A stretch of 64,000 nucleotides of DNA from Candidatus Woesearchaeota archaeon (GCA_964623495.1 CAZUTV010000001.1:116454-180453), one strand, 5' to 3'. Numbered from the stretch's first letter, positions 33,902 to 59,404 are shown. Made by a program: numbers and translations. The notes: generated by a model from the letters alone, not told the origin.

Positions 33902-34228
33902 ATGGTGAAGAATAAGCCTTTTGAAAAAAGGTTTCCAAAAACTAATAAAGGAAAAGACTTAGAGCTTCCTGTATGGACTGCAGATGGATTTGTTGGAATT
34001 CTTGGCTTAATGATATACAACTTTATTCTTTACTTACTCAAAATTGCAGGGGCAGGTGGAATAATTGCAAAAATGGAAGAAACAATGGGCTATTTCACAT
34101 TAAATACTTTCGTTGATCTTGGGTTTTCCCCTGGAGAAATGTTCTTTGGGTTGATAATAACCTTGATAGTTTCATTTTTGCTTGGAGTTTTCATAGCAAA
34201 AATAGTGAGAAAAAACAGAAAAAGATAA
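33902..34228 (+). CDS. Small membrane protein (hypothetical)
   Basis: Three predicted hydrophobic helices. Confidence 0.3.
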   Translation: MVKNKPFEKRFPKTNKGKDLELPVWTADGFVGILGLMIYNFILYLLKIAGAGGIIAKMEETMGYFTLNTFVDLGFSPGEMFFGLIITLIVSFLLGVFIAKIVRKNRKR

Positions 34229-41523: not shown

Positions 41524-41826
41524 TTATTTCAAGCTAGCAATATCTTTGTCTGCATCTCCCGGACTAATTACAGCAATTGAAGAAGCTGCAACTTGCAATC
41601 CTGCAGCAATTCCTAGCTTATTTTTATTATCAACTTCCTTGCAAGGTATTTTCTTCTCCTTGCACAAAACAGGCAGATGCTGGACAACTTCTTTTGGTTC
41701 AACATCAGAAGCGTAGACAACTAATTTTGCAGTGCCTCTTTCTATAGCTTTAGTAACTTCGTTGGTTCCTTTCTCTATCTTTCCTGTTTTTCTTGCTTTC
41801 TCTATTATAGAATATATGTCTGCCAT
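41524..41826 (-). CDS. rpl7ae: 50S ribosomal protein L7Ae (eL8; K-turn binder)
   Basis: [29 protein letters not shown]...[33 protein letters not shown]. Confidence 0.9.
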
Positions 41827-42017
41827 GTTAAAACCTAATCTGTTTTTGGAACCTTTTTTAAAAGATTCGTTGTCTAGAACGAAATTTAATCTTCATCTGA
41901 ACATTTTCGCTCATCAGACAAATTAAGATGAAAAAGTTAATTTATAAAGCTTTCTACAAAATTTATCTCCATCTAACATCAACTTAATCTGTGCGTTCTC
42001 CCGGAGACCTTCTAGGT

Positions 42018-49464: not shown

Positions 49465-50109
49465 TTATTTTTTCTTTAATTCGGCTTTTAATTTAGCCAT
49501 TTTTTCCTTTATTCTTTGGTCCTTTGGCTTCCTGTATCTTCTGAATAAGACTAGTCCTATAATTCCGACAGAAAGCACAGCAACAGTGATATAAACAACA
49601 CTATAATCCCAGCCATAAGGATTGCAAGCAACTCTTACAGTCATTTCATGAGAAATCGATGCTTTTGCTGCAGAACCGCCAGCGCCAGTCAAACTGTTTT
49701 CTAACGGCACAGATTCAATAATAACCTCGCCATCATATTCTTTTATTGGCTCAGTGCACTCTAATTTATCTATAGCCTTCCCAATTAAAGGGATAGAGGC
49801 ATACTGCCGGGTATAGACTTTAGGAACCTTAAAGTAAAAATTCAAAGGAATAGCATCCTGGCTGTAAGTGTATGGAGGAAGATATTTTATATCTGCATCT
49901 TTCATCACCAAAACTTCCTGTAATTCTTCTGAAACACTGACTTGAACATTTCCCTCTGTTGAATAGGGATTATAAGCCCCCACACTTAAAGACCCTTCCT
50001 CACCCTCGTTAAGCATCAAGGATTGCTGTTTAACAAAGATCCCAATGCCTGCAGAAGCAAAAGAGCAGAGTAATAAAACCCCGACAAATAAAGCAAATAT
50101 TTTCATCAT
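49465..50109 (-). CDS. Secreted protein with signal peptide and C-terminal TM anchor plus Lys-rich tail (hypothetical)
   Basis: Start placed at MMKIFALFVGVLLLCSFASA, adjacent to the stop of the upstream gene. C-terminal ITVAVLSVGIIGLVLFRRYRKPKDQRIKEKMAKLKAELKKK. Confidence 0.35.
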   Translation of the reverse strand: MMKIFALFVGVLLLCSFASAGIGIFVKQQSLMLNEGEEGSLSVGAYNPYSTEGNVQVSVSEELQEVLVMKDADIKYLPPYTYSQDAIPLNFYFKVPKVYTRQYASIPLIGKAIDKLECTEPIKEYDGEVIIESVPLENSLTGAGGSAAKASISHEMTVRVACNPYGWDYSVVYITVAVLSVGIIGLVLFRRYRKPKDQRIKEKMAKLKAELKKK

Positions 50110-50110
50110 C

Positions 50111-50722
50111 TTAAGTACACGAACCCCCTGTTGCAACCCCTTTAAATGTAATAGTATTATTAAAAGTACCTGAAGCTGTTCCTGCAGGAACATCAAGCCA
50201 GAACCTATAATAATGGTTGCTTCCAATACTTACATTTGGCCCTGCCTTGGTGGCTGTTGTTGTCATCGCAACCTCTTGCCCTAAACTAGGATGTGTGACA
50301 TTTGTTGCAGTATGATTATAATAAGTCTCGTTTCCGACAAGGATTTGGTCTCCTCCAGAGGTTTTTAAATTATCATTTGCACTAACACAGAGATCAACAT
50401 TTGTATTGCTGTCTGTTGAAACATTGACCCACATAGAAGTGGACTGGTTTGCTGTCGCACCGCCAACAGTTGTATTAAGTCCGTCATAATTATGCGTGGC
50501 ATTTTGGTTTGTTGCAGGGAGAGAGCTTATATTTCCAAACCTTATTCCATCAGAAAGATTCGTTGAGAGATCGATTGCAAAATAAACATTTATTGTAACA
50601 TTAGACGCAGTAGTCTGCTGTGTTGCATATCCTGTAGTTTTAGCTCCTTGATTAAATAACAGAATAACAGATAGCAAAAACAAAAATCCAAAAACCAACA
50701 CTATCCAATTTTCACCCTTCAT
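50111..50722 (-). CDS. Secreted/pilin-like protein homologous to the C-terminal domain of the adjacent 2777-aa giant protein
   Basis: MKGENWIVLVFGFLFLLSVILLF hydrophobic N-terminus. IRFGNISSLPATNQ...MWVNVSTDSNTNVDLCVSANDNLKTSGGDQILVGNETY...YRFWLDVPAGTASGTFNNTITFKGV aligns with INWSLSSLPAYNQ...YWVNITSYGG..MKAESDLRTAGGDVLGIGNETY...LKFFLNAPARQAAGNYNNSLSFRAV at the giant's C-terminus. Confidence 0.45.
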   Translation of the reverse strand: MKGENWIVLVFGFLFLLSVILLFNQGAKTTGYATQQTTASNVTINVYFAIDLSTNLSDGIRFGNISSLPATNQNATHNYDGLNTTVGGATANQSTSMWVNVSTDSNTNVDLCVSANDNLKTSGGDQILVGNETYYNHTATNVTHPSLGQEVAMTTTATKAGPNVSIGSNHYYRFWLDVPAGTASGTFNNTITFKGVATGGSCT

Positions 50723-50915: not shown

Positions 50916-50932
50916 AAAAACCGTAGGTTTTT
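50916..50932. repeat. 17-nt perfect palindrome AAAAACCGTAGGTTTTT (copy 1 of 2) at the 3' end of the giant gene
   Basis: Identical 17-mer also at 61340..61356. 7-bp stem, 3-nt loop, flanked by A/T runs. Confidence 0.55.
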
Positions 50933-53900
50933 ATGGAGATTCGCCGTTCTGCACAGCCCTAAAGGATAAGCTGTTGTTATAATTCCCGGCCGCCTGCCTT
51001 GCAGGAGCATTTAAGAAAAACTTAAGATAGATTGTAGCATTCCCTATATTACTTGCTATTAAATGGTTTGAAAAATCTGTTGTAAGAGGTATTTTAATTG
51101 AATCAGGCACACTGCTGTTCGAGGTTGAATTGGAATATGTTTCATTTCCAATGCCCAACACATCTCCTCCAGCAGTTCTCAAGTCGCTTTCTGCCTTCAT
51201 GTACAAATCGCTTGTGCCCCCATAAGAGGTTATATTTACCCAGTATTCAGTTATTCCTGTACCATTATTTCCGTCTGCAGATTGATTATATGCAGGAAGA
51301 GAGCTCAAGCTCCAATTAATCATCTGGCCAAGCCTTGAAGACAAATCCATAGCCACAGAATATGCATTAGCAATTACTGTTGAATTTTGCTTTGTTGCCC
51401 CATCTAGCTTAGCATCATTTGGAGTTACCTGGCAAGTTAAGTTTTGATCTATAGCAAACTCGCCATTAACAATAGTTGAAGCATTAGAAAATCCGTTCTT
51501 GGTATCCTGATAAATCTGATAGACCTGCTGGCTTGTAAGAGTTCTATTGTAAATCTGCAAGTTATCTAAAGTCATGTTAGTATAACAATTTGAGAGACAA
51601 AGATCATTAGGGTTCATTCCAAGAATAATAGGATTATTGTACTTCCTTAAAACAGTGCTCGTATCAGTACTGTTGTCGAGAGTTCCATTTAAGTAAACAC
51701 TAACTTTAGTCCCATTATAGGTAAAAGAGATAAAGGTGAAAGAATCATTAGCTATTGTAGTGTTAGATAAAAGAAGTTGTGATGAAGTTCCTGTTTCATT
51801 GAATATAACAACACGAATTCTAGAACCACTTAACCCAATAGTATACTCTGCCCTGGTTGAAATGTCGTTGCTTTTATAGACAAAGTAATTGCTTCCAGCA
51901 TTGGGTGTTTTAGGATTTGCCCAAAATGCAACAGTTAATCCGTTATGTGTTGAATTAAGGGATGAAGAACTTGCAATATTTACAGAATCATCAACACCAT
52001 CAAAATCCAAAGCTCCCCCAACCTTCCCGCTAGATTTCCAGGTTGTGCCTGTAAGAGAGCCGTTGTTTGCATTCCCAGAATAATCTCTAACACCGACACT
52101 TCCACTAACATTAACATCAAAAGGCATATTCAAAAGCAGCATTGAATTACTATTAACAAGCCAGTTGTAAACATTAGTAACTGTATCTGATTCATTATCG
52201 CTAGTGCTTTGATTGTAACAGCTAAGATTCTGACTTGAAACTCCGGGAAAAGGGCTTAAAGAAGGAGTGTTGTGCATCGGCTCTGTGTTTGTGTCATTAA
52301 CTGTCATTGACCAAATCTGGTCATCTTCTAAATTGCCGGCAGAGATATTTACTTTTATAGAATAAGTCCCTGCCTGCGTGTAGTTTCCGACCCAGATGAA
52401 AGTAGATTGATTGTCATAAGGGGTTTGTCTGCTACTATCAACAAACCACTTTATATTTACAGGAGTAACATTGGAATAAGTTATACTAAATGTCTGATTG
52501 CTGGGTTCAGCTATTGAAAAAGTGTCTGTTGTAGGAACATAAGCCAAAATAACAGGAGTGTATAAAATTAGGTGAACCATTTTGCTAGCGTTCATTGTCA
52601 CACCAGTAAAGTTAGAGCCATAACCTGATTTTGCAGCGCTAAAATTGTGCGGGGTGGAGCAATTTATAGTTGAGCTAGAGCCAGTACATCCTGTAACATA
52701 GGTTGCATCGCCCGTTTGGTTGTACTCCATAATCCACTGTGTTGTTGTCAAGCCATTTGCATCTGTTTGGTTATTATTAATCAAGAGAGCTCCATAAGTG
52801 TCTGTAAGATTAAAATTAACAGAAGAAACAGCAGTATAAACCTGGTCTGTAGTATTTCCTGTAAACTGATAATAAACCTCCACAAAACCAGTGCTAAGAA
52901 AATCAATCTTGGATTTATTAAAACTAACATTATAAAGTTCAATATTGGTCACGGCTCCTGCACCAAGAGTAATATCAGTACTGGAGCAATTAGTGATGCT
53001 TGAATTAAAAATAGAGACGTTATCCACAACTGAAAGAAGATAAAAGGCTGTTTGGCAATTTGTGATATTTAAACCAGACAAGTTTATTGAACTTGAGGAA
53101 ACCTGAACTGAATTAACATTTGTGCCAACCAATCCAGTAATAGTATCATTATTTGTAAGAATATTACTGACTGAATCAATGTTAATTCCGGAATAATTTG
53201 AAGAAACTGGCGGATCTCTTAAGATATTATGTTCTATAACAGAATTGTTCGAACCGATAAGAATATAACTACTAGAAAAGTTTGAGAGAGTATTATAAGT
53301 TATATTTATTCCATTAGGAATATCCCCGGAAATATCCATTCCCTTAACACCATGATGCAGCTGATTGTGGTCAAATATAATCCTATCATCCATATTAAAT
53401 GCCCCTGTAAACGTTGCATTGTCTGTACTATAATTCAGCTGATTATTGTAAACAGTAATATTTCCTCCAGCAACTATAGCAATCAAGCTTTGAGCATAAG
53501 AGAGTCTGGAGTTATTCACAAAAGAGTTTGTTGTATTTTCAAATCTAATTGCATACCCTCCAGCTAAATTAGAGATGTTTGAATTTAAAATATCTACGCT
53601 ATCAGAATATGTTCCAAGAGGAAGAATAATCCCATTCCCTAGTTGAACAAACCCACCTTGACAACCGCCTGCAGCAGAAGTATCGCCATAATAATTTCCA
53701 ACAATATCATTTAAAATTGAACTATTCACTAAGACATTATTTGAATTATTGATATAGATTGCAGAAAGATTCCCAGAATAGCATGTAGAAGTGTCTGTAG
53801 AATTAGACCAAAGTTTAGTTATATTATTTAAGTTTAATGTCGTGTTGTGAGAATTATCCAAAGCAATTCCATAAACAGTAACATAAGTTGTATTTATCCA

Positions 53901-56900
53901 GCTATTATTGTAAAGTGTATTGTTTTGGATAAAAGAATTGTTCGTGCCATCAAAATGTATTACTTTAGCATACTGCTCCATTCTGCAATTCTTAATAGTC
54001 ACATTATTTCTCGCTGCAACATTTACTCCCCATATGCCATAACTGTTATTCCCAAAAATCCTATAAGAGTTGCAGTCAAAAACAACATTATCTGCAGAGA
54101 TATTGTAATGCTCGCACTGGCTACCTGTAAGCGTAGTGCTTGAAGACACCTGTGTTATAGAACACATATCTGCAGAAAATGTCCAGTTAGAGCTTGCAAA
54201 AGAAGATTTAGAAGAATTATCATAAGCCAAGCAGTTCCACAAATAGCTTCCATCACTAAGCCCTGACAAAGAGAAATTAGCATAATAATTCCTAGTGAGA
54301 TTATAGATATTGAAAATTTCTGTTGAATTCAATGTTCTGTTAAAAAAGGCAACATCATCAATTGTCCCATTAAAGTCCCTGTTTGGATTTGGTGAAGCAG
54401 CAGCATCTCTATCTCTGCCTATTAAAACATATTGCCCAGAAAAGCCAAAAATAGAATCTGAAAAAGAAGAGTCTGTTGCCTTAGAAGAACCATCAATGTA
54501 CAAAACAACATCATTGCTTGCCCAGGTTAAAGCCACATGATGCCACGAATTAACATAACTGCTGTAATTGGTTTGGGCGCTGCCTGTTGCACTTAAAAAC
54601 TCCAAATCCTGGTCATTATTCAGATAAACTAAAAACTCTCCGCTTGAAAATGCGCCGCCATTGTAGTTTCCCAGAATAGCATAATCTGTGGTTGTGTCCA
54701 CTCTATTCTTAAAGTTAACCCATGTGCTGATTGTTCCTGTTGCTGTTGCTGTAAAGATGTTAGAAGTATTAACATAATCGTCTGTGCTTATGCCAATTCC
54801 ATTCCCAGCATAAGCCTCAATAAATTCATCTCCGTCAAACCCTACAGGAGTTCCATTATTTCCGCTTCCAGAAAAATCATAAACAATACTTAAATTCTCC
54901 CCATAACCGGCATCATTATTAAAATGATAAAGTAAAGTATTTCCGGTCATATTAATATTGTTGTAGCTGTCATAAATCCCGCTGTTAGGAAGCTCTGAAT
55001 ATTTTGTCTGATTCAAGTGCCAGGTTCCTGTTGTGTTTATGTATAAGCTAATGTTCTTTATCAAAATATCATCTGTAACATTGCACTGCAAGCTTAAAGA
55101 GTTTATAGCGATATAGCTGGATCCCGAGACAGGAGAAACCAAATTAACATTTGGCGCAGAGTCGGTATAAACACTAGAATTAATGCTTGTTGCTCCGTCA
55201 AGAATAGCATCATTAGGTGTTACCTGACAGGTTATGTTCTGAGGATTAATCATTTCTTGATATACAAGAGTTGCATTGTTTGTAAGCCCGTTTCTAGTGT
55301 CTTGAAATAACTGATAAACCTGCTGGCTTGTAAGAGTTCTATTGTAAACCCTAAAGTCATCAATTGTTCCGTTAAAAGGAGAAAAAGCACCAGATGAATC
55401 CCTGCCAAGACCTATTGTTAAATTGTAATCAGCCAAGTTGCTTGGAGCCCCCAAACTTTGATTCTCTCTTGAACCATTTATGTAAAGCGTGCAATTTCTA
55501 TTATCGCAGGCAAGAGAATACATATACCAGTTACCTGGATCAGGATAAGTCGCCATAAGAAGGTAAGAGTTATTAATTCTTGTCGGTAAAATCAGTCCAT
55601 CAAATGCATTCCAATTAAGACTAACTCCAAGAGAGTAATTTCCTTTAGAGAAAAAGCCAGCATCAATAAACGGGGCTTGAGGGAATCTTCCCATATTAAA
55701 CCAAAAGTTGATTGTGAAGTTATTTCCAAGCACAAGACTGGTATTAGGCACAACTAAAAAGTCATTTGTTGATTCGTTAAAATGATAACCTCCACCAATT
55801 TTTCCGCTAGTCCATAAAGGAGTTCCGTTAATTGTTGCATTAAAGCCATTTCCAGAATAATCCTTAGCTGCGCTTGAAGAATTTGTATCAAACGGCAGGT
55901 ATAAGGCAGTTATAGAAGTTCCATCAATAAGCCAATTATAAATATTTGTAACACTATCTCCATCAGCATCAACGGTTGATTGATTTGCACAAGTGAGGTT
56001 CTGCCACAAATAAATAGGATAAGGAGATAATGAAGGGGTGTTATGTGTTGGGGCATTATCTGTAGTAAGATAAGAAAAAGTATCTGTTGAGTTCCATTGA
56101 TTAACAGAATCATTAGCAAAAACCTTCCACTGAATTAAAATATTGTATGTTGAATTAATTGTTTTTGTAACATTACTCCAGTTTGCAACTCCGTTCATTG
56201 AAACCCAAGAATCATTAATTAGTGTTCCATTTCCATTATCAAAACTGAAGATATACCCGCTAAGTGCAGTGTCATCACTCCAGGCAACACTATGCTGAAC
56301 AGAAGCTCCTCTAACTGTTGAGTTTGTTGAATTTAAAGACCATTGTGGAGCATTATCTGTAGCATTATAATTCACATCTAACTTGATCAAATCGGTCCAA
56401 AGTGTGTTATGGAAAGGATTTTCTTGATGCAATGTGAAATATCCCTCAACTCCAAGAGATGTTTTTCTCTGGAATAAAGGCAGCTCCCCAGGAATATTTT
56501 CAAAATACAAATCCAGAGTATCATTATGATTAGTAAGCAGATAATTGTTATCTGAAAATCTAATCTCTCCAAGCTCAATTTTTTCTCCATTTAATTCAAC
56601 AATAGAAGGATAAATTTTTCTAGTTATATTCAGTGAAGAAAAATTGTCATTTACAAGCAAAAATATCTCATCTAAATGACTTGTTTCATTTAATACCTCT
56701 CTTAATTGCAATTTGGCTTTTCCATCTTTAATCTCTAAATTAGGCACTTCACTTAAAATTAGTCTTTCTTTTTCTGAAGAATTAAGTTTAGGGATCCCTA
56801 CACTATCTAAAAGATATTCGCTGCCGTTCCAAGAATAAATAGTGGGGCATTCAACAAAACTATCCAGTTCCTGAACTAACATTAAAGTATGGCCAGAGCT

Positions 56901-59264
56901 ATTAATATAATGAAAAAGTGTGGAGGAGCTGCCACTTATTACTGCTGTAAGAACTCTTTCTGTCCCAGAAGTTCCACAGGCATCGTTTAAACAGCTTGTG
57001 TTTCTGCTACTTCCCCATGAACCAGCCGTAAAATTATAAACATAAAAATAAAGGTCGTTTGCTGAAGCAATTTCATTTACTATCTCGTTATATCCTTCCC
57101 AAGTATAAGTTAAATTGTTTATTGTTGACGTAGATTCACTAATTTTAAACCTCACCATAATAACATTATACTGATTAATTCCACTAACCATAGAAATAGA
57201 ATTCCAAGTATTATCGCTTCTGCTAATCTCATCTTCGTTAGTAGAATTCATTGTTGTAGGTCCACTACTCCATCCACTTAAAACAGGAGAAACCGGGTTT
57301 TGAGAATCCAATCCAAAATAACCTATCTGATCTGTTTGATTAGGGTAATAAGTGGCAACAGTTGCAGGATCAATAATATGATCAAACTCCAGGCTTCCAT
57401 CCAAAACTCTAAGATCAAAGGTATCCTGCTCGCCCTGCAAACCATCCAAATAAACAGTATTGTACTCCTCCGAGTTTAAGCTTGTAAACTCAGCAATTAA
57501 AATGCTTTGATTAACTTCATAAACCTCAATTCTCGGGGTTCCATTAACAACTCTCGGATATAAGGTTATATCTCTACTAGAATCAAGTTTATGCTCAAAA
57601 GTGGCTCTTACATAATGTCCTCCAGGAATTGTCTCGCTCCAAATACCATCCAAGTCCTTAACTTGTTCATAGATATCGCTAAGAACAGTATAGTTTTCAT
57701 CTAAATGCTCTGCTTTGGTTATTAAAATAATTCTAAATGTCTGGTTGCTTAGACTAGGAACTATCCATTCAACATAATCGTAAATTCCATTTCCATTCTT
57801 GTCTTCAACCTTTAAGGGAGTAAGATATTTAGATTGCTCTTCCCAATAAATTTTAACTTTGCTAGGATAATTAATCTTAAGATCCTCATTTAGATTTGTA
57901 AAAGCAAGAACATTTTCATAATGAATATCACCAGGCCCAATAATCTTAACCACTTTTCCATCATCAATCTCTTGTTCTTCAGAATAAGGCGCATCAGTAT
58001 AATACCCTATAGCTATTTCAGAATTATCTTCAAGTAATTCCTTGATCTCTACTTTAACCTCATCTCCTACTTCAGAGACATCAACAGCTCTGCCAGTAAT
58101 TCCTCTGCCAAAAAATCCTAAAATAAAGTTAAAAATTCCTTTAAAGAAACCACCGCCCCCGGTTTCAGAAGTTACACTACCTGTAATACCATGGCTTTCT
58201 TCTGCAATTGTCTTCTCATTTTTAACATTAACATCAAGTTCTTCTTCTTTCTCATCTTTTATTTTCTTAACAGAAACATTTCCTGCAAGATTTGGCAAGT
58301 CAACAACCAATCCTTCTGCGGAATTAGCCCCATCAATATCAACTTTAATTCTTTTCTCCCACTTAACAGGCTTACCAAGCACAGCACTATATTGAACAAC
58401 GTTTTCCTGAGTCGTAATATTAACAGTTTCATTTAAAATTGTGGTATTTGTAACATTTTGAACTATTATAAAGTTTGTTTCATTTAAAATCTCAGTTATA
58501 TTGGCAATTGTTCCATTAGTAATTACTGTTTGGTTTGTGGCATTTGTGATAGTTCCTGTCCCTTCACTAGATTCATTTGAAGGAATTTGGGGAGTTTCGA
58601 TTGTTTCATTTTCAGTTACATTTTGTTCTGGCCCAATAATTGTTTCATTAGTAGAAGGTTCTTCTGTTTCATTAGTTGCTGGTTCTTCCTGAGTTTCATT
58701 ACCTATCTCATCAGGAGTTTCTTCAGAAACTGCTTCTGTTATTTCTTCTGCCGGGGTTTCTTCAGTTGTGGTTTCTTCTGGAGTTTCAGTAGAGGTAGAT
58801 TCACTAAAAGAAGAATCACCGCCCCCAGAATCAGAACTAGAAGATTCACTTGAGCTTTCTGAGCCTGATTCACTCGGAGCTTCTTCTGAGGTCAGACCTG
58901 TAAAAAAAGACTTAACATTACTCGCAAGATTCTTAAAGCTAAAACCAGATGCTCCTTGTTCTGATTGAGAAAACTGATTACCCAGAATAAATATAGCTAT
59001 TAGAATAAAGAATATGGCTCCAAGCAAAATAAAAAGTGTTTTGTGTTGTTTAAAAGTAGGGGGTATTTTTGGGAACCTTTTTCTAAAAGGTTCATTGGAA
59101 ACCTTTTCTAAAGGTTTATTTTTAAAAGGTTCAGTTACAGCACGAGTTTCTTTGTTCTCAGAAACATATCTAGAATGGGTCTTTCCTTGCTTGTCCCTAT
59201 AAGTGTGATAATAATACGGCCCAAACCTCTTACCATTACGATAAATATAACGTTTGTATACCAA
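50931..59264 (-). CDS. Giant (2777 aa) membrane-anchored surface protein: three LamG/concanavalin-like domains, parallel beta-helix-like Asn-rich repeats, internal tandem module duplication, Ser/Glu/Thr-rich stalk. TTG start with GAGGT Shine-Dalgarno
   Basis: N-terminal basic cytoplasmic segment plus TM (LFILLGAIFFILIAIFIL). LamG hallmarks FNGTIDDFRVYNRTLTSQQVYQLFQ, FNGTIDDVAFFNRTLNSTEIFNIYN, LDNLQIYNRTLTSQQVYQIYQ. Duplicated ~300-aa modules (THNTPSLSPYPIYLWQNLTCANQST... vs MHNTPSLSPFPGVSSQNLSCYNQST...). Start codon TTG at 59262..59264 preceded by AAAAGAGGT. Confidence 0.7.
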   Translation of the reverse strand: MVYKRYIYRNGKRFGPYYYHTYRDKQGKTHSRYVSENKETRAVTEPFKNKPLEKVSNEPFRKRFPKIPPTFKQHKTLFILLGAIFFILIAIFILGNQFSQSEQGASGFSFKNLASNVKSFFTGLTSEEAPSESGSESSSESSSSDSGGGDSSFSESTSTETPEETTTEETPAEEITEAVSEETPDEIGNETQEEPATNETEEPSTNETIIGPEQNVTENETIETPQIPSNESSEGTGTITNATNQTVITNGTIANITEILNETNFIIVQNVTNTTILNETVNITTQENVVQYSAVLGKPVKWEKRIKVDIDGANSAEGLVVDLPNLAGNVSVKKIKDEKEEELDVNVKNEKTIAEESHGITGSVTSETGGGGFFKGIFNFILGFFGRGITGRAVDVSEVGDEVKVEIKELLEDNSEIAIGYYTDAPYSEEQEIDDGKVVKIIGPGDIHYENVLAFTNLNEDLKINYPSKVKIYWEEQSKYLTPLKVEDKNGNGIYDYVEWIVPSLSNQTFRIILITKAEHLDENYTVLSDIYEQVKDLDGIWSETIPGGHYVRATFEHKLDSSRDITLYPRVVNGTPRIEVYEVNQSILIAEFTSLNSEEYNTVYLDGLQGEQDTFDLRVLDGSLEFDHIIDPATVATYYPNQTDQIGYFGLDSQNPVSPVLSGWSSGPTTMNSTNEDEISRSDNTWNSISMVSGINQYNVIMVRFKISESTSTINNLTYTWEGYNEIVNEIASANDLYFYVYNFTAGSWGSSRNTSCLNDACGTSGTERVLTAVISGSSSTLFHYINSSGHTLMLVQELDSFVECPTIYSWNGSEYLLDSVGIPKLNSSEKERLILSEVPNLEIKDGKAKLQLREVLNETSHLDEIFLLVNDNFSSLNITRKIYPSIVELNGEKIELGEIRFSDNNYLLTNHNDTLDLYFENIPGELPLFQRKTSLGVEGYFTLHQENPFHNTLWTDLIKLDVNYNATDNAPQWSLNSTNSTVRGASVQHSVAWSDDTALSGYIFSFDNGNGTLINDSWVSMNGVANWSNVTKTINSTYNILIQWKVFANDSVNQWNSTDTFSYLTTDNAPTHNTPSLSPYPIYLWQNLTCANQSTVDADGDSVTNIYNWLIDGTSITALYLPFDTNSSSAAKDYSGNGFNATINGTPLWTSGKIGGGYHFNESTNDFLVVPNTSLVLGNNFTINFWFNMGRFPQAPFIDAGFFSKGNYSLGVSLNWNAFDGLILPTRINNSYLLMATYPDPGNWYMYSLACDNRNCTLYINGSRENQSLGAPSNLADYNLTIGLGRDSSGAFSPFNGTIDDFRVYNRTLTSQQVYQLFQDTRNGLTNNATLVYQEMINPQNITCQVTPNDAILDGATSINSSVYTDSAPNVNLVSPVSGSSYIAINSLSLQCNVTDDILIKNISLYINTTGTWHLNQTKYSELPNSGIYDSYNNINMTGNTLLYHFNNDAGYGENLSIVYDFSGSGNNGTPVGFDGDEFIEAYAGNGIGISTDDYVNTSNIFTATATGTISTWVNFKNRVDTTTDYAILGNYNGGAFSSGEFLVYLNNDQDLEFLSATGSAQTNYSSYVNSWHHVALTWASNDVVLYIDGSSKATDSSFSDSIFGFSGQYVLIGRDRDAAASPNPNRDFNGTIDDVAFFNRTLNSTEIFNIYNLTRNYYANFSLSGLSDGSYLWNCLAYDNSSKSSFASSNWTFSADMCSITQVSSSTTLTGSQCEHYNISADNVVFDCNSYRIFGNNSYGIWGVNVAARNNVTIKNCRMEQYAKVIHFDGTNNSFIQNNTLYNNSWINTTYVTVYGIALDNSHNTTLNLNNITKLWSNSTDTSTCYSGNLSAIYINNSNNVLVNSSILNDIVGNYYGDTSAAGGCQGGFVQLGNGIILPLGTYSDSVDILNSNISNLAGGYAIRFENTTNSFVNNSRLSYAQSLIAIVAGGNITVYNNQLNYSTDNATFTGAFNMDDRIIFDHNQLHHGVKGMDISGDIPNGINITYNTLSNFSSSYILIGSNNSVIEHNILRDPPVSSNYSGINIDSVSNILTNNDTITGLVGTNVNSVQVSSSSINLSGLNITNCQTAFYLLSVVDNVSIFNSSITNCSSTDITLGAGAVTNIELYNVSFNKSKIDFLSTGFVEVYYQFTGNTTDQVYTAVSSVNFNLTDTYGALLINNNQTDANGLTTTQWIMEYNQTGDATYVTGCTGSSSTINCSTPHNFSAAKSGYGSNFTGVTMNASKMVHLILYTPVILAYVPTTDTFSIAEPSNQTFSITYSNVTPVNIKWFVDSSRQTPYDNQSTFIWVGNYTQAGTYSIKVNISAGNLEDDQIWSMTVNDTNTEPMHNTPSLSPFPGVSSQNLSCYNQSTSDNESDTVTNVYNWLVNSNSMLLLNMPFDVNVSGSVGVRDYSGNANNGSLTGTTWKSSGKVGGALDFDGVDDSVNIASSSSLNSTHNGLTVAFWANPKTPNAGSNYFVYKSNDISTRAEYTIGLSGSRIRVVIFNETGTSSQLLLSNTTIANDSFTFISFTYNGTKVSVYLNGTLDNSTDTSTVLRKYNNPIILGMNPNDLCLSNCYTNMTLDNLQIYNRTLTSQQVYQIYQDTKNGFSNASTIVNGEFAIDQNLTCQVTPNDAKLDGATKQNSTVIANAYSVAMDLSSRLGQMINWSLSSLPAYNQSADGNNGTGITEYWVNITSYGGTSDLYMKAESDLRTAGGDVLGIGNETYSNSTSNSSVPDSIKIPLTTDFSNHLIASNIGNATIYLKFFLNAPARQAAGNYNNSLSFRAVQNGESP

Positions 59265-59284
59265 CCTCTTTTACCTCTTTTGGA

Positions 59285-59330
59285 AACCTTTCCTAAAGGT
59301 TTATTTTTGGGAACCTTTTCCTAAAAGGTT
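59285..59330. promoter_or_regulatory. Two palindromic sites AACCTTT-CCT-AAAGGTT (59285..59301) and AACCTTTT-CCT-AAAAGGTT (59312..59330), 21-66 nt upstream of the giant gene start. Two more copies lie inside its first 65 codons (59074..59092, 59100..59116)
   Basis: Four copies of the same 7-8-bp inverted-repeat half-sites with 3-nt spacers, regularly spaced ~27 nt within each pair. Read directly from sequence. Confidence 0.45.
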
Positions 59331-59404
59331 CATGTGCTGTAACTATTTAAAGATTGTTGTGAGGCAAGAAAAAGATATAAAAACAAGTAATCTACATTAA
59401 AATT

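What the first reader, a model, noticed from the sequence alone, without database searches (positions are those of the whole stretch)
59074..59330. Four copies of an AACCTTT(T)-N3-(A)AAAGGTT palindrome flanking the start of the giant gene (two in the 5' region, two inside the first 65 codons)
Copies at 59285..59301 and 59312..59330 (upstream), and at 59100..59116 and 59074..59092 (coding, within the codons for EPFKNKPLEKVSNEPFRKRFP). Inverted repeats with 7-8-bp arms and a 3-nt spacer arranged as two ~27-nt-spaced pairs are typical of dimeric transcription-factor operator arrays (repression by roadblock/looping over the start site). Alternatively they are a short repeated DNA cassette that was co-opted into coding sequence, producing the repeated EPF...K peptide motif.
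Basis: seen in the sequence. Interest (0 to 1): 0.55.

Follow-up and report, generated by a model that had tools for sequence, protein, structure and literature searches.

The report
DPANN-wide palindromic gene-start repeat element
The four palindromes are real copies of a ~30-base, direction-specific palindromic repeat that Woese-/Pacearchaeota-type archaea carry just upstream of many genes, ribosomal ones included. At this gene two copies lie in the leader and two were inserted in frame into a dispensable protein linker.

Summary
In detail: four exact palindromes and a fifth truncated copy, against 0.03 expected by chance. They are not a private operator array of this gene. They belong to an oriented repeat family, AAAT-RAACCTTT(T)-N3-(A)AAAGGTTY-CCAAAA. 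An exact-pattern scan of 185,579 species genomes hit 29 stretches, 25 of them in Nanoarchaeota/Pacearchaeota/Woesearchaeota MAGs, with up to 9 contigs per MAG. Copies lie mostly 11-30 nt upstream of co-oriented start codons (uS10, uL4, uL24, eS19, L7Ae, aEF1A, Spt5, Rpo11) and 23 nt before a 16S rRNA gene. They often occur in tandem, sometimes inside ORF linkers, and once form a tRNA intron. Among 12 orthologous giant-gene loci, only the window has upstream copies and only 3 have coding copies. A filled/empty pair shows a clean 51-nt in-frame indel. The coding copies are therefore cassette insertions, not a conserved roadblock. The mode of action is unresolved. I favour a transcribed leader or intercistronic hairpin over a double-stranded DNA operator. 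Separately, an invariant 11-bp inverted repeat (AGTTACAGCAC / GTGCTGTAACT) brackets the promoter-to-codon-44 segment in all 12 orthologues. It is a better candidate for start-site looping or DNA inversion.

The parts
59304..59335 (-). Upstream class-1 element: acAT-GAACCTTTT-AGG-AAAAGGTTC-CCAAAAA. The palindrome proper is 59311-59331.
   Evidence: Exact palindrome. Family PWM score 48.7, while the shuffle maximum is below 0. RNA hairpin -8.5 kcal/mol. The TSS predicted from the conserved TATA falls on its first loop base, A 59322 (inferred).
59277..59306 (-). Upstream class-2 element: AAAT-AAACCTTT-AGG-AAAGGTTT-CCAAAAG. It ends 20 nt before the TTG start and is followed by two GAGG(T) Shine-Dalgarno-like boxes.
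   Evidence: PWM score 45.6. Hairpin -5.3 kcal/mol. The distance to the start codon lies within the 11-30 nt family range.
59117..59134 (-). Truncated class-1 copy (TGAACCTTTTA/AAAAATA; the right arm is deleted), directly after the RAVT codons.
   Evidence: the repeat finder family D2, 59119-59133, and the sequence itself.
59092..59121 (-). Coding class-2 element, translated as KPLEKVS.
   Evidence: PWM score 39.8.
59066..59097 (-). Coding class-1 element, translated as NEPFRKRFPK, in the cytoplasmic linker just before the TM helix.
   Evidence: PWM score 52.1. 97% identical to the upstream class-1 copy over 32 nt.
59344..59351 (-). TATA box TTTAAATA of the giant gene, part of the 20-nt block TTTAAATAGTTACAGCAC(AT) conserved in all orthologues.
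   Evidence: Invariant in 12 orthologous loci. BRE/TATA PWM score 9.2, against a median of 10.8 for real promoters.
59334..59344 (-). Left arm AGTTACAGCAC of an invariant 11-bp inverted repeat, at about -21..-11 relative to the predicted TSS.
59133..59143 (-). Right arm GTGCTGTAACT, which is codons (R41)A42 V43 T44. It is 190 nt from the left arm. The palindrome cassette starts at the next base.
   Evidence: Invariant at all synonymous sites in 12 loci, while the preceding codon varies CGT/GGT/AGT.
50931..59264 (-). Giant gene (2777 aa): N-terminal ~44-aa cytoplasmic 'FGPYYY' module, linker, TM helix, then a huge extracellular part with Laminin_G_3 domains.
41842..41873 (-). Degenerate family copy (GAATCTTTTAAAAAAGGTTCCAAAAAC) 23 nt upstream of the ribosomal protein L7Ae gene (41524-41826).
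33910..33941 (+). Family copy (AAGCCTTTTGAAAAAAGGTTTCCAAAAA) at the start of a small ORF of unknown function.
   Evidence: PWM score 36.3.

Best explanation
Shown: the four palindromes are copies of a lineage-wide, polar, hairpin-type repeat. Its consensus is AAAT-RAACCTTT(T)-N3-(A)AAAGGTTY-CCAAAA, and it comes in two length classes that both have a 3-nt centre. It is found in Woesearchaeota/Pacearchaeota-type DPANN archaea. Copies are gained and lost as short cassettes, often as dimers of about 51-57 nt. They are retained preferentially 11-30 nt upstream of start codons, in the direction of the gene. Translation and transcription machinery genes are among those marked. At this locus a class-1 + class-2 dimer sits between the conserved promoter and the Shine-Dalgarno/TTG start. 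A second array (truncated 1, then 2, then 1) lies in frame in the dispensable cytoplasmic linker between the N-terminal module and the TM helix, which is what creates the EPF..K repeats. Inferred: the element acts as a transcribed stem-loop, triloop plus an 8-9 bp stem followed by single-stranded CCAAAA, placed at the 5' edge of the ribosome-binding region. There it would act as a leader or intercistronic stabiliser/insulator, or as the docking site of one conserved hairpin-binding factor. Under this reading the upstream class-2 copy, and possibly class 1, is the working copy for the giant gene. The coding copies would be tolerated passengers.
For: Family and lineage. An exact 24-base pattern hits 29 genome stretches, 25 of them in DPANN MAGs and up to 9 contigs in one MAG. 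Low-GC metagenome contigs carry the same flanks. In 76 oriented copies the flank not imposed by the search is conserved: T at -1 in 96%, A at -2 to -4 in 67-78%.

Position and polarity. 49 copies have a co-oriented gene start downstream against 6 with a convergent gene end. Copies inside ORFs are 17 sense against 3 antisense. Distances to the start cluster at 11-30 nt.

Targets, confirmed by Pfam: eS19, Spt5, uL4, uL24, uS10, Rpo11, RNase PH and L7Ae in the window. One copy ends 23 nt before a 16S rRNA gene.

Support for a transcribed hairpin. One copy with its flanks makes up a 41-nt tRNA intron. Copies inside ribosomal-protein operons lack an upstream TATA. The distance between AACC and GGTT is 11 nt (80 copies) or 9 nt (24 copies) and almost never even (6 copies). 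That means a constant triloop with a stem that differs by one pair. In the SD-bearing group the hairpin ends 6 nt before the SD. The hairpins fold at -8.5 and -5.3 kcal/mol.

Insertion character. Only 3 of 12 orthologues have coding copies and only 1 of 12 has upstream copies. L165 versus L153 shows a clean 51-nt in-frame indel. Homologue P0001/P0004 lacks the segment. L102 reads the same DNA in another frame.
Against: There is no RNA-specific signature. Imperfect copies show 9 G.U against 7 A.C mismatches, and there are very few compensatory variants. The arms are conserved in sequence, not only in pairing.

In about a third of copies a good upstream TATA predicts a TSS inside or just after the palindrome. 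At this gene the predicted TSS is the loop of class 1, so the full hairpin would not be transcribed from that promoter.

The orientation bias could simply reflect avoidance of the two T5 tracts that the reverse orientation would put into transcripts. Oligo-T is the archaeal termination signal (established knowledge, not tested here).

The loci analysed were selected by the motif, so there is no unbiased whole-genome census. No TSS or binding data exist.
Confidence: 0.5

Rival explanations
1. Double-stranded DNA operator. A dimeric, lineage-specific transcription factor binds the dyad at or just downstream of the TSS and controls initiation of a large regulon. At this gene the upstream pair would repress or activate, and the coding pair could add a roadblock.
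For: The element has perfect dyad symmetry with a variable 3-nt centre, sequence-conserved arms and no G.U bias. In 25 of 74 copies the best BRE/TATA match lies upstream and predicts a TSS at positions 9-24 of the element. At the giant gene the conserved TATA puts the TSS on the class-1 loop. That is the classical position of archaeal repressors (established knowledge). The polar flanks could be the end of a TATA box (AAAT) and an initiator (CC/A).
Against: There are two half-site spacings, 9 and 11 nt, but almost no 10. Copies occur in a tRNA intron, in ORFs, and inside ribosomal-protein operons without a TATA. The coding sites are absent from 9 of 12 orthologues. The target set is functionally heterogeneous. 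No candidate regulator is conserved next to the locus.
Confidence: 0.28
2. An essentially selfish REP/MITE-like palindromic repeat, mobilised as a single-stranded DNA hairpin, for example by an HUH/Y1 transposase. It would survive where it is harmless, in leaders, gene ends, linkers and introns, with no dedicated function.
For: Presence and absence vary between close orthologues, and there is a clean indel of 1.5 units. Copies form tandem arrays. They are inserted in a tRNA intron and in ORF linkers. The arm and flank sequences are invariant across genomes, as expected for a site recognised by a transposase. The second coding copy in L128 and L153 has decayed.
Against: There is a strong preference for 11-30 nt upstream of starts and for the sense orientation. 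The element is retained at orthologous genes while its flanks diverge (L006/L146, L047/L148). No target-site duplication is seen at the filled site. Tandem copies are always direct, not alternating as in BIMEs. No transposase has been linked to the element.
Confidence: 0.17
3. The element is itself a BRE/TATA promoter module. Its left arm and A/T centre resemble the local consensus AnAAAnnTTTAWAAA, which would put the TSS about 13 nt after the element.
For: The promoter PWM places its best hit on the element's own centre in 49 of 74 copies. Copies with an AAA loop score 9.2, close to real promoters. About 9 genes have the start codon 11-15 nt after the element and no SD, which fits leaderless transcripts.
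Against: The commonest loop (AGA) scores only 4.1 and the window copies (AGG) score below 3, against a real-promoter median of 10.8. The main distance class, 19-23 nt, would give 6-10-nt leaders and would exclude from the mRNA the well-placed AGGAG boxes that follow CCAAAA. It also leaves the right arm and the symmetry unexplained.
Confidence: 0.05

Closest known systems
Bacterial REP/BIME elements (repetitive extragenic palindromes, mobilised by RAYT transposases)
   Same: Both are 20-40-nt palindromes with conserved asymmetric flanks and many copies per genome. Both cluster, lie in transcribed intergenic space, show presence/absence polymorphism, and form mRNA hairpins that can stabilise transcripts.
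   Different: This element is archaeal. Its flanks are AAAT/CCAAAA rather than GTAG. Tandem copies are direct, not alternating. It lies upstream of starts rather than mainly at 3' ends or between convergent genes. No RAYT-like gene is linked. The arms are perfect rather than imperfect.
Archaeal repressor operators overlapping the TSS (e.g. MDR1, Phr, Lrp/TrmB-family sites)
   Same: A palindrome placed between the TATA box and the start codon, present at several genes.
   Different: Two spacing classes. Dozens of functionally unrelated targets, including rRNA and ribosomal-protein genes. Copies inside a tRNA intron and inside ORFs. No cognate factor is known.
5'-leader and intercistronic stabiliser stem-loops (ompA 5' hairpin, B. 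subtilis 5' stem-loops/STAB-SD, malE-malF REP)
   Same: A stable hairpin immediately 5' of the ribosome-binding region or between cistrons.
   Different: Those are gene-specific structures without a shared sequence. Here one sequence is reused genome-wide and across genera.
Correia/MITE-type miniature elements that insert near genes and alter expression
   Same: Short non-autonomous repeats. Insertion polymorphism, including in-frame insertions into ORFs. Possible promoter or processing effects.
   Different: This element is only about 30 nt, against 100-150 nt or more. It has no terminal inverted repeats distinct from the body, and no target-site duplication was seen.
Invertons and fimS-type invertible switches (relevant to the 11-bp inverted repeat, not to the palindromes)
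   Same: A short perfect inverted repeat flanks a 155-242-bp segment at the 5' end of a surface-protein gene.
   Different: The TATA box lies outside the segment. All 12 loci and all assemblies are in one orientation. No recombinase is linked. The simulated flip gives no in-frame start.

Membership tests
REP/BIME (RAYT-associated) | Short (20-40 nt) palindrome present in many copies per genome, mostly extragenic | tested here: met
   About 30-nt element. 6 copies in this 64-kb window. 9 contigs of one MAG hit by the strictest pattern. Further copies in the fetched loci.
REP/BIME (RAYT-associated) | Conserved 5' GTAG-type tetranucleotide and a linked RAYT (Y1 HUH) transposase gene | tested here: not met
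   The flank is AAAT at the 5' end and CCAAAA at the 3' end. No GTAG. A RAYT gene was not searched genome-wide because whole genomes were not available.
REP/BIME (RAYT-associated) | Clusters with alternating orientation (BIME) | tested here: not met
   All tandem arrays inspected are head-to-tail in a single orientation.
Operator of a dimeric transcription factor | Dyad symmetry with fixed half-site spacing | tested here: inconclusive
   The dyad is perfect. The AACC-to-GGTT distance is 11 nt (80 copies) or 9 nt (24 copies), and rarely 10, 12 or 13 (6 copies).
Operator of a dimeric transcription factor | Position overlapping the core promoter or TSS of regulated genes | tested here: inconclusive
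   The predicted TSS lies inside or just after the element in 25 of 74 copies and at the giant gene. There is no good upstream TATA in the rest. No experimental TSS is available.
Operator of a dimeric transcription factor | Positional conservation at orthologous promoters | tested here: not met
   Upstream copies are present at 1 of 12 orthologous giant-gene loci and coding copies at 3 of 12.
Operator of a dimeric transcription factor | Binding by a cognate protein | not testable with these tools
   Needs EMSA or DAP-seq.
Structured cis-regulatory RNA | Base pairs supported by covariation, including G.U tolerance on the sense strand | tested here: inconclusive
   G.U 9 against A.C 7 among imperfect copies. 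The closing pair switches G-C/A-T between classes. There are few other variants: AACT 11, AAAC 7, GACC 5.
Structured cis-regulatory RNA | Transcribed in the sense orientation | tested here: met
   This holds for the copy in a tRNA intron, for in-ORF copies at 17 sense against 3 antisense, and for the copy upstream of a 16S rRNA gene. For promoter-proximal copies it is inferred only.
Any Rfam family | Match to a curated covariance model | tested here: not met
   No hit at gathering threshold. Only chance-level hits at E up to 10.
MITE | Terminal inverted repeats plus target-site duplication | tested here: not met
   The filled (L153) against empty (L165) site shows a 51-nt indel without a recognisable duplication.
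Inverton (for the 11-bp inverted repeat) | Both orientations found in populations; recombinase present | tested here: not met
   12 of 12 loci and 4 assemblies of this population are in one orientation. Reads could not be examined.

The most novel reading that the evidence does not exclude
There are two linked possibilities. First, the palindromic element may be the recognition site of a single conserved hairpin- or dyad-binding factor. That factor would coordinate expression of the translation/transcription apparatus and of surface proteins in genome-reduced Woese-/Pacearchaeota. This would be a lineage-wide global cis-code, spread by cassette insertion. Second, the giant surface-protein gene is additionally governed by an invariant 11-bp inverted repeat. 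One arm lies between the TATA box and the TSS. The other is imposed on the codons xAVT. Together they bracket the TSS, the start codon and the N-terminal module. This could be a DNA-inversion (phase-variation) switch or a looping operator, neither of which has been described for DPANN archaea as far as my searches show.
Probability: 0.2. Interest if true: 0.8.

Novelty: new variant of a known kind. Interest (0 to 1): 0.6.

Why it matters
DPANN archaea are uncultivated or barely cultivated, and their gene regulation is largely unknown. A single 30-nt element recurs in front of ribosomal-protein, rRNA, elongation-factor and RNA-polymerase genes across genera. It is a concrete, testable handle on global expression control, or on a new archaeal REP-like mobile repeat. 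It also matters for annotation: these cassettes extend ORFs and create spurious 'EPFxKRFPK' or 'NLLEKGSQ' peptide repeats. The invariant inverted repeat at the giant adhesin-like gene shows nucleotide-level selection inside a coding region. It offers a testable hypothesis for how an episymbiont might switch its largest surface protein.

Tried and rejected
(1) Peptide-level explanation (a conserved EPFxKRFPK motif). Rejected because the same DNA is read in another frame in L102/L010 (MNLLEKGSQ) and because spacing between copies differs.

(2) A micro-ORF starting at the ATG of ATGAACC. Rejected because class 2 has ATA, and there is no consistent stop or length.

(3) The element as the TATA box. 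Largely rejected; see the fourth rival.

(4) Long-range pairing between upstream and coding palindromes (I1/I2). RNAfold prefers the local hairpins, and the coding copies are absent from most orthologues.

(5) A fixed TATA position upstream of the element. No sharp peak was found.

(6) G.U against A.C asymmetry as an RNA test. Uninformative at 9 against 7.

(7) Rfam at both thresholds: nothing.

(8) Literature searches for the motif and for DPANN palindromic or promoter motifs: nothing relevant.

(9) Viral-contig scans for the motif and for the TATA-plus-arm block. The motif gave 0 hits and the block gave 2 chance hits.

(10) Simulated inversion between the 11-bp arms. There is no in-frame start codon, so inversion could only switch the gene off.

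(11) A regulator encoded next door. The divergent neighbour gene differs between orthologous loci.

(12) About 40 of the metagenome hits belong to unrelated repeat families in GC 0.42-0.6 contigs and were set aside.


Full report
**Observation.** The gene strand is the window's minus strand. Read on that strand, the region runs as follows:
- TATA-like TTTAAATA (59351-59344)
- AGTTACAGCAC
- AT
- class-1 palindrome GAACCTTTT-AGG-AAAAGGTTC followed by CCCAAAAATA
- class-2 palindrome AAACCTTT-AGG-AAAGGTTT followed by CCAAAAG
- AGGTAAAAGAGG
- the TTG start (59264)
- 43 codons of an N-terminal module ending in RAVT
- a truncated class-1 copy
- class 2
- class 1
- a TM helix

The strict pattern is expected 0.03 times in this 36% GC window. 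The repeat finder shows two classes with conserved, non-palindromic flanks. The two class-1 copies are 97% identical over 32 nt. Three other assemblies of the same population are 100% identical across the region.

**What the window is.** The neighbouring genes include a YGR210-type Obg GTPase, L7Ae, Kae1/TsaD and a PrimPol. Syntenic orthologous loci come from MAGs labelled Woesearchaeota/Nanoarchaeota. The giant protein (2777 aa) has a short cytoplasmic N-terminal module, one TM helix and an extracellular part with Laminin_G_3 domains.

**The motif is a lineage-wide family.**
A low-GC subset shares the asymmetric flanks AT...CCAAAA.
- The flank-extended pattern hit 29 stretches among 185,579 species genomes. 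25 of these are in Nanoarchaeota/Pacearchaeota/Woesearchaeota MAGs, with 9, 5, 3 and 2 contigs in single MAGs.
- In 76 distinct oriented copies the left flank, which the search did not impose, is AAAT. T is present at -1 in 96%.
- The distance between AACC and GGTT is 11 nt (80 copies) or 9 nt (24 copies), and otherwise rare (6 copies). The centre is therefore always 3 nt and the arms differ by one pair.
- In the low-GC loci, 302 of 6602 TTT-N-AAA frames have fully complementary outer tetramers, against 61 +/- 8 expected. 215 of the 302 are AACC/ACCT.

**Where copies sit.**
- 49 copies have a co-oriented ORF start downstream and 6 have a convergent gene end. Copies inside ORFs are 17 sense and 3 antisense. 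Distances to the start cluster at 11-30 nt.
- Downstream genes include eS19, Spt5, uL4, uL24, uS10, Rpo11, RNase PH, a DAC domain protein and a GHMP kinase.
- By eye they also include aEF1A, uS19 and uS3.
- One copy ends 23 nt before an archaeal 16S rRNA gene.
- One copy with its flanks makes up the 41-nt intron of a tRNA.
- In the window itself, a degenerate copy lies 23 nt before the L7Ae gene and another lies at a small ORF.
- Arrays of 3-5 direct copies occur. Some are read through by the C-terminal tail of the upstream ORF, and in different frames. The conservation is therefore at nucleic-acid level.

**Orthologous giant genes.** A full HMMER scan with residues 2-141 found a family of giant orthologues. 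Their linkers mostly lack motif-derived peptides. DNA was obtained for 11 further loci.
- Upstream palindromes occur only in the window.
- Coding copies occur only in the window, L128 and L153, always starting at the base after ...GTAACT.
- L165 and L153 are 82% identical in this region. They differ by one clean 51-nt in-frame indel that contains one complete and one half element.
- The second copies in L128 and L153 have decayed.

The coding copies are therefore cassette insertions into a tolerant linker, not conserved regulatory sites. The criterion 'frequency no higher than chance' clearly fails.

**Mechanism.** The local promoter consensus was derived from 79-81 leaderless-type genes. It has an A-rich BRE at -36..-32 and TTTAWAAA at -29..-22, with the TSS 22 nt after the TATA end.

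At the giant gene this puts the TSS on a purine that follows a T-rich run in most of the 12 loci (the run is absent in L159 and L163). In the window that purine is A 59322, the first loop base of class 1. Class 2 would then be in the 5' UTR, 6 nt before the first SD-like box.

Family-wide, 25 of 74 copies have a better upstream TATA, which predicts a TSS inside or right after the element. In the other 49 the best (usually weak) TATA-like match is the element's own centre. No fixed upstream TATA position exists.

In favour of a transcribed hairpin:
- the tRNA-intron copy
- operon-internal copies without a TATA
- the constant triloop with two stem lengths
- the position at the 5' edge of the ribosome-binding region
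- stable folds of -8.5 and -5.3 kcal/mol

In favour of a DNA dyad:
- sequence-level conservation of the arms
- no G.U excess (9 against 7)
- predicted TSSs within the element

The orientation bias may partly reflect avoidance of the T5 tracts that the reverse orientation would create. My estimates are about 0.5 for a transcribed cis-acting hairpin, 0.28 for a DNA operator, 0.17 for a purely selfish repeat and 0.05 for a promoter module.

**An additional feature.** RNAfold paired AGUUACAGCAC (59344-59334) with GUGCUGUAACU (59143-59133).
- The 11-mer occurs nowhere else in the window or in about 150 loci.
- In all 12 orthologous loci (42-63% amino-acid identity) the upstream block TTTAAATAGTTACAGCAC and the coding 11-mer are invariant.
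- The neighbouring FGPYYY codons vary at synonymous sites.
- The codon before the 11-mer changes between CGT, GGT and AGT, which alters only the base outside the repeat.
- Arm spacing varies from 155 to 242 nt, and the leaders between the arms are otherwise unrelated.

This is nucleotide-level selection on both arms without covariation. With the predicted TSS, the upstream arm lies at -21..-11 and is probably not transcribed. That favours a DNA-level role, either a factor site with looping or roadblock, or recombination sites. All loci are in one orientation, and a simulated flip leaves no in-frame start.

**Comparison and novelty.** The element behaves most like bacterial REPs or other miniature palindromic repeats that double as mRNA or promoter elements. 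It fails their defining features: no GTAG/RAYT, no alternating clusters and no target-site duplication. It matches no Rfam family. Nothing relevant turned up in the searchable literature. I classify it as a new variant of a known kind.

Noticed in passing
window 59334-59344 and 59133-59143 (- strand); L128 4876-4886/5129-5139; L153-L160, L163-L165: An invariant 11-bp inverted repeat, AGTTACAGCAC / GTGCTGTAACT. One arm abuts the TATA box. The other forms the codons xAVT at the end of the N-terminal module. Both are 100% conserved in 12 orthologous loci although synonymous sites nearby are saturated. The arms lie 155-242 nt apart.
   Followed up: yes
window 59133-59264 (codons 1-44); proteins P0002-P0151: The ~40-aa N-terminal module (V/A)YKRYIxxxGKxFGPYYYxxYRDxxGK..., followed by a TM helix, is shared by 162 representative protein clusters of 43 to 5004 aa. 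It has no Pfam family and its function is unknown.
   Followed up: partly
L154 1397-1500, L158 1407-1500, L157 1411-1500, L128 4889-5000: Four orthologues carry a 90-112-nt leader where the window has the palindromes. It has a conserved CGGAGGCAA loop, apparently covarying stems, and a hairpin AAAACC...GGTTTT that covers an AGGTGG box just before the ATG. No Rfam match. It may be a separate cis-regulatory RNA or an insert.
   Followed up: partly
L134 129-250: A tRNA gene whose 41-nt anticodon-loop intron consists of the palindromic element with its flanks (agatGAACCTTTTAGAAAAAGGTTCCCAAAAAAtctacaag).
   Followed up: partly
window 41842-41873 (-) and 33910-33941 (+): Two further copies of the element family in the window. 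One lies 23 nt before the L7Ae gene and has a U.G pair on the sense strand. The other lies at the start of a 108-aa ORF of unknown function and has a G.U pair.
   Followed up: partly
L007, L011, L015, L016, L019, L022, L027 and about 25 other loci (GC 0.42-0.50, microbial-mat metagenomes): An unrelated, highly repeated element shares the core GAACCTTTTTTGAAAAGGTTC. It is flanked by ...ctgatgtcttaggacataattta... and by a second partial palindrome. It is probably a cyanobacterial or mat-organism repeat family.
   Followed up: no
L009, L018, L024, L025, L040, L061, L066, L095 and others (GC 0.28-0.45): A sister variant in which the palindrome extends symmetrically (TTTTGAT-GAACCTTTT-N3-AAAAGGTTC-ATCAAAA). 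L095 has tandem 34-nt units. Compensated arm variants (GACC/GGTC, AAAC/GTTT, TACC/GGTA) occur in the same contigs.
   Followed up: no
window 49465-50722 and the loci downstream of every orthologous giant gene: The giant gene is always followed by the same set of genes without Pfam domains, of about 200 aa, about 225 aa and about 640 aa. It is usually preceded by the YGR210-type GTPase. This is a conserved gene cluster of unknown function.
   Followed up: no
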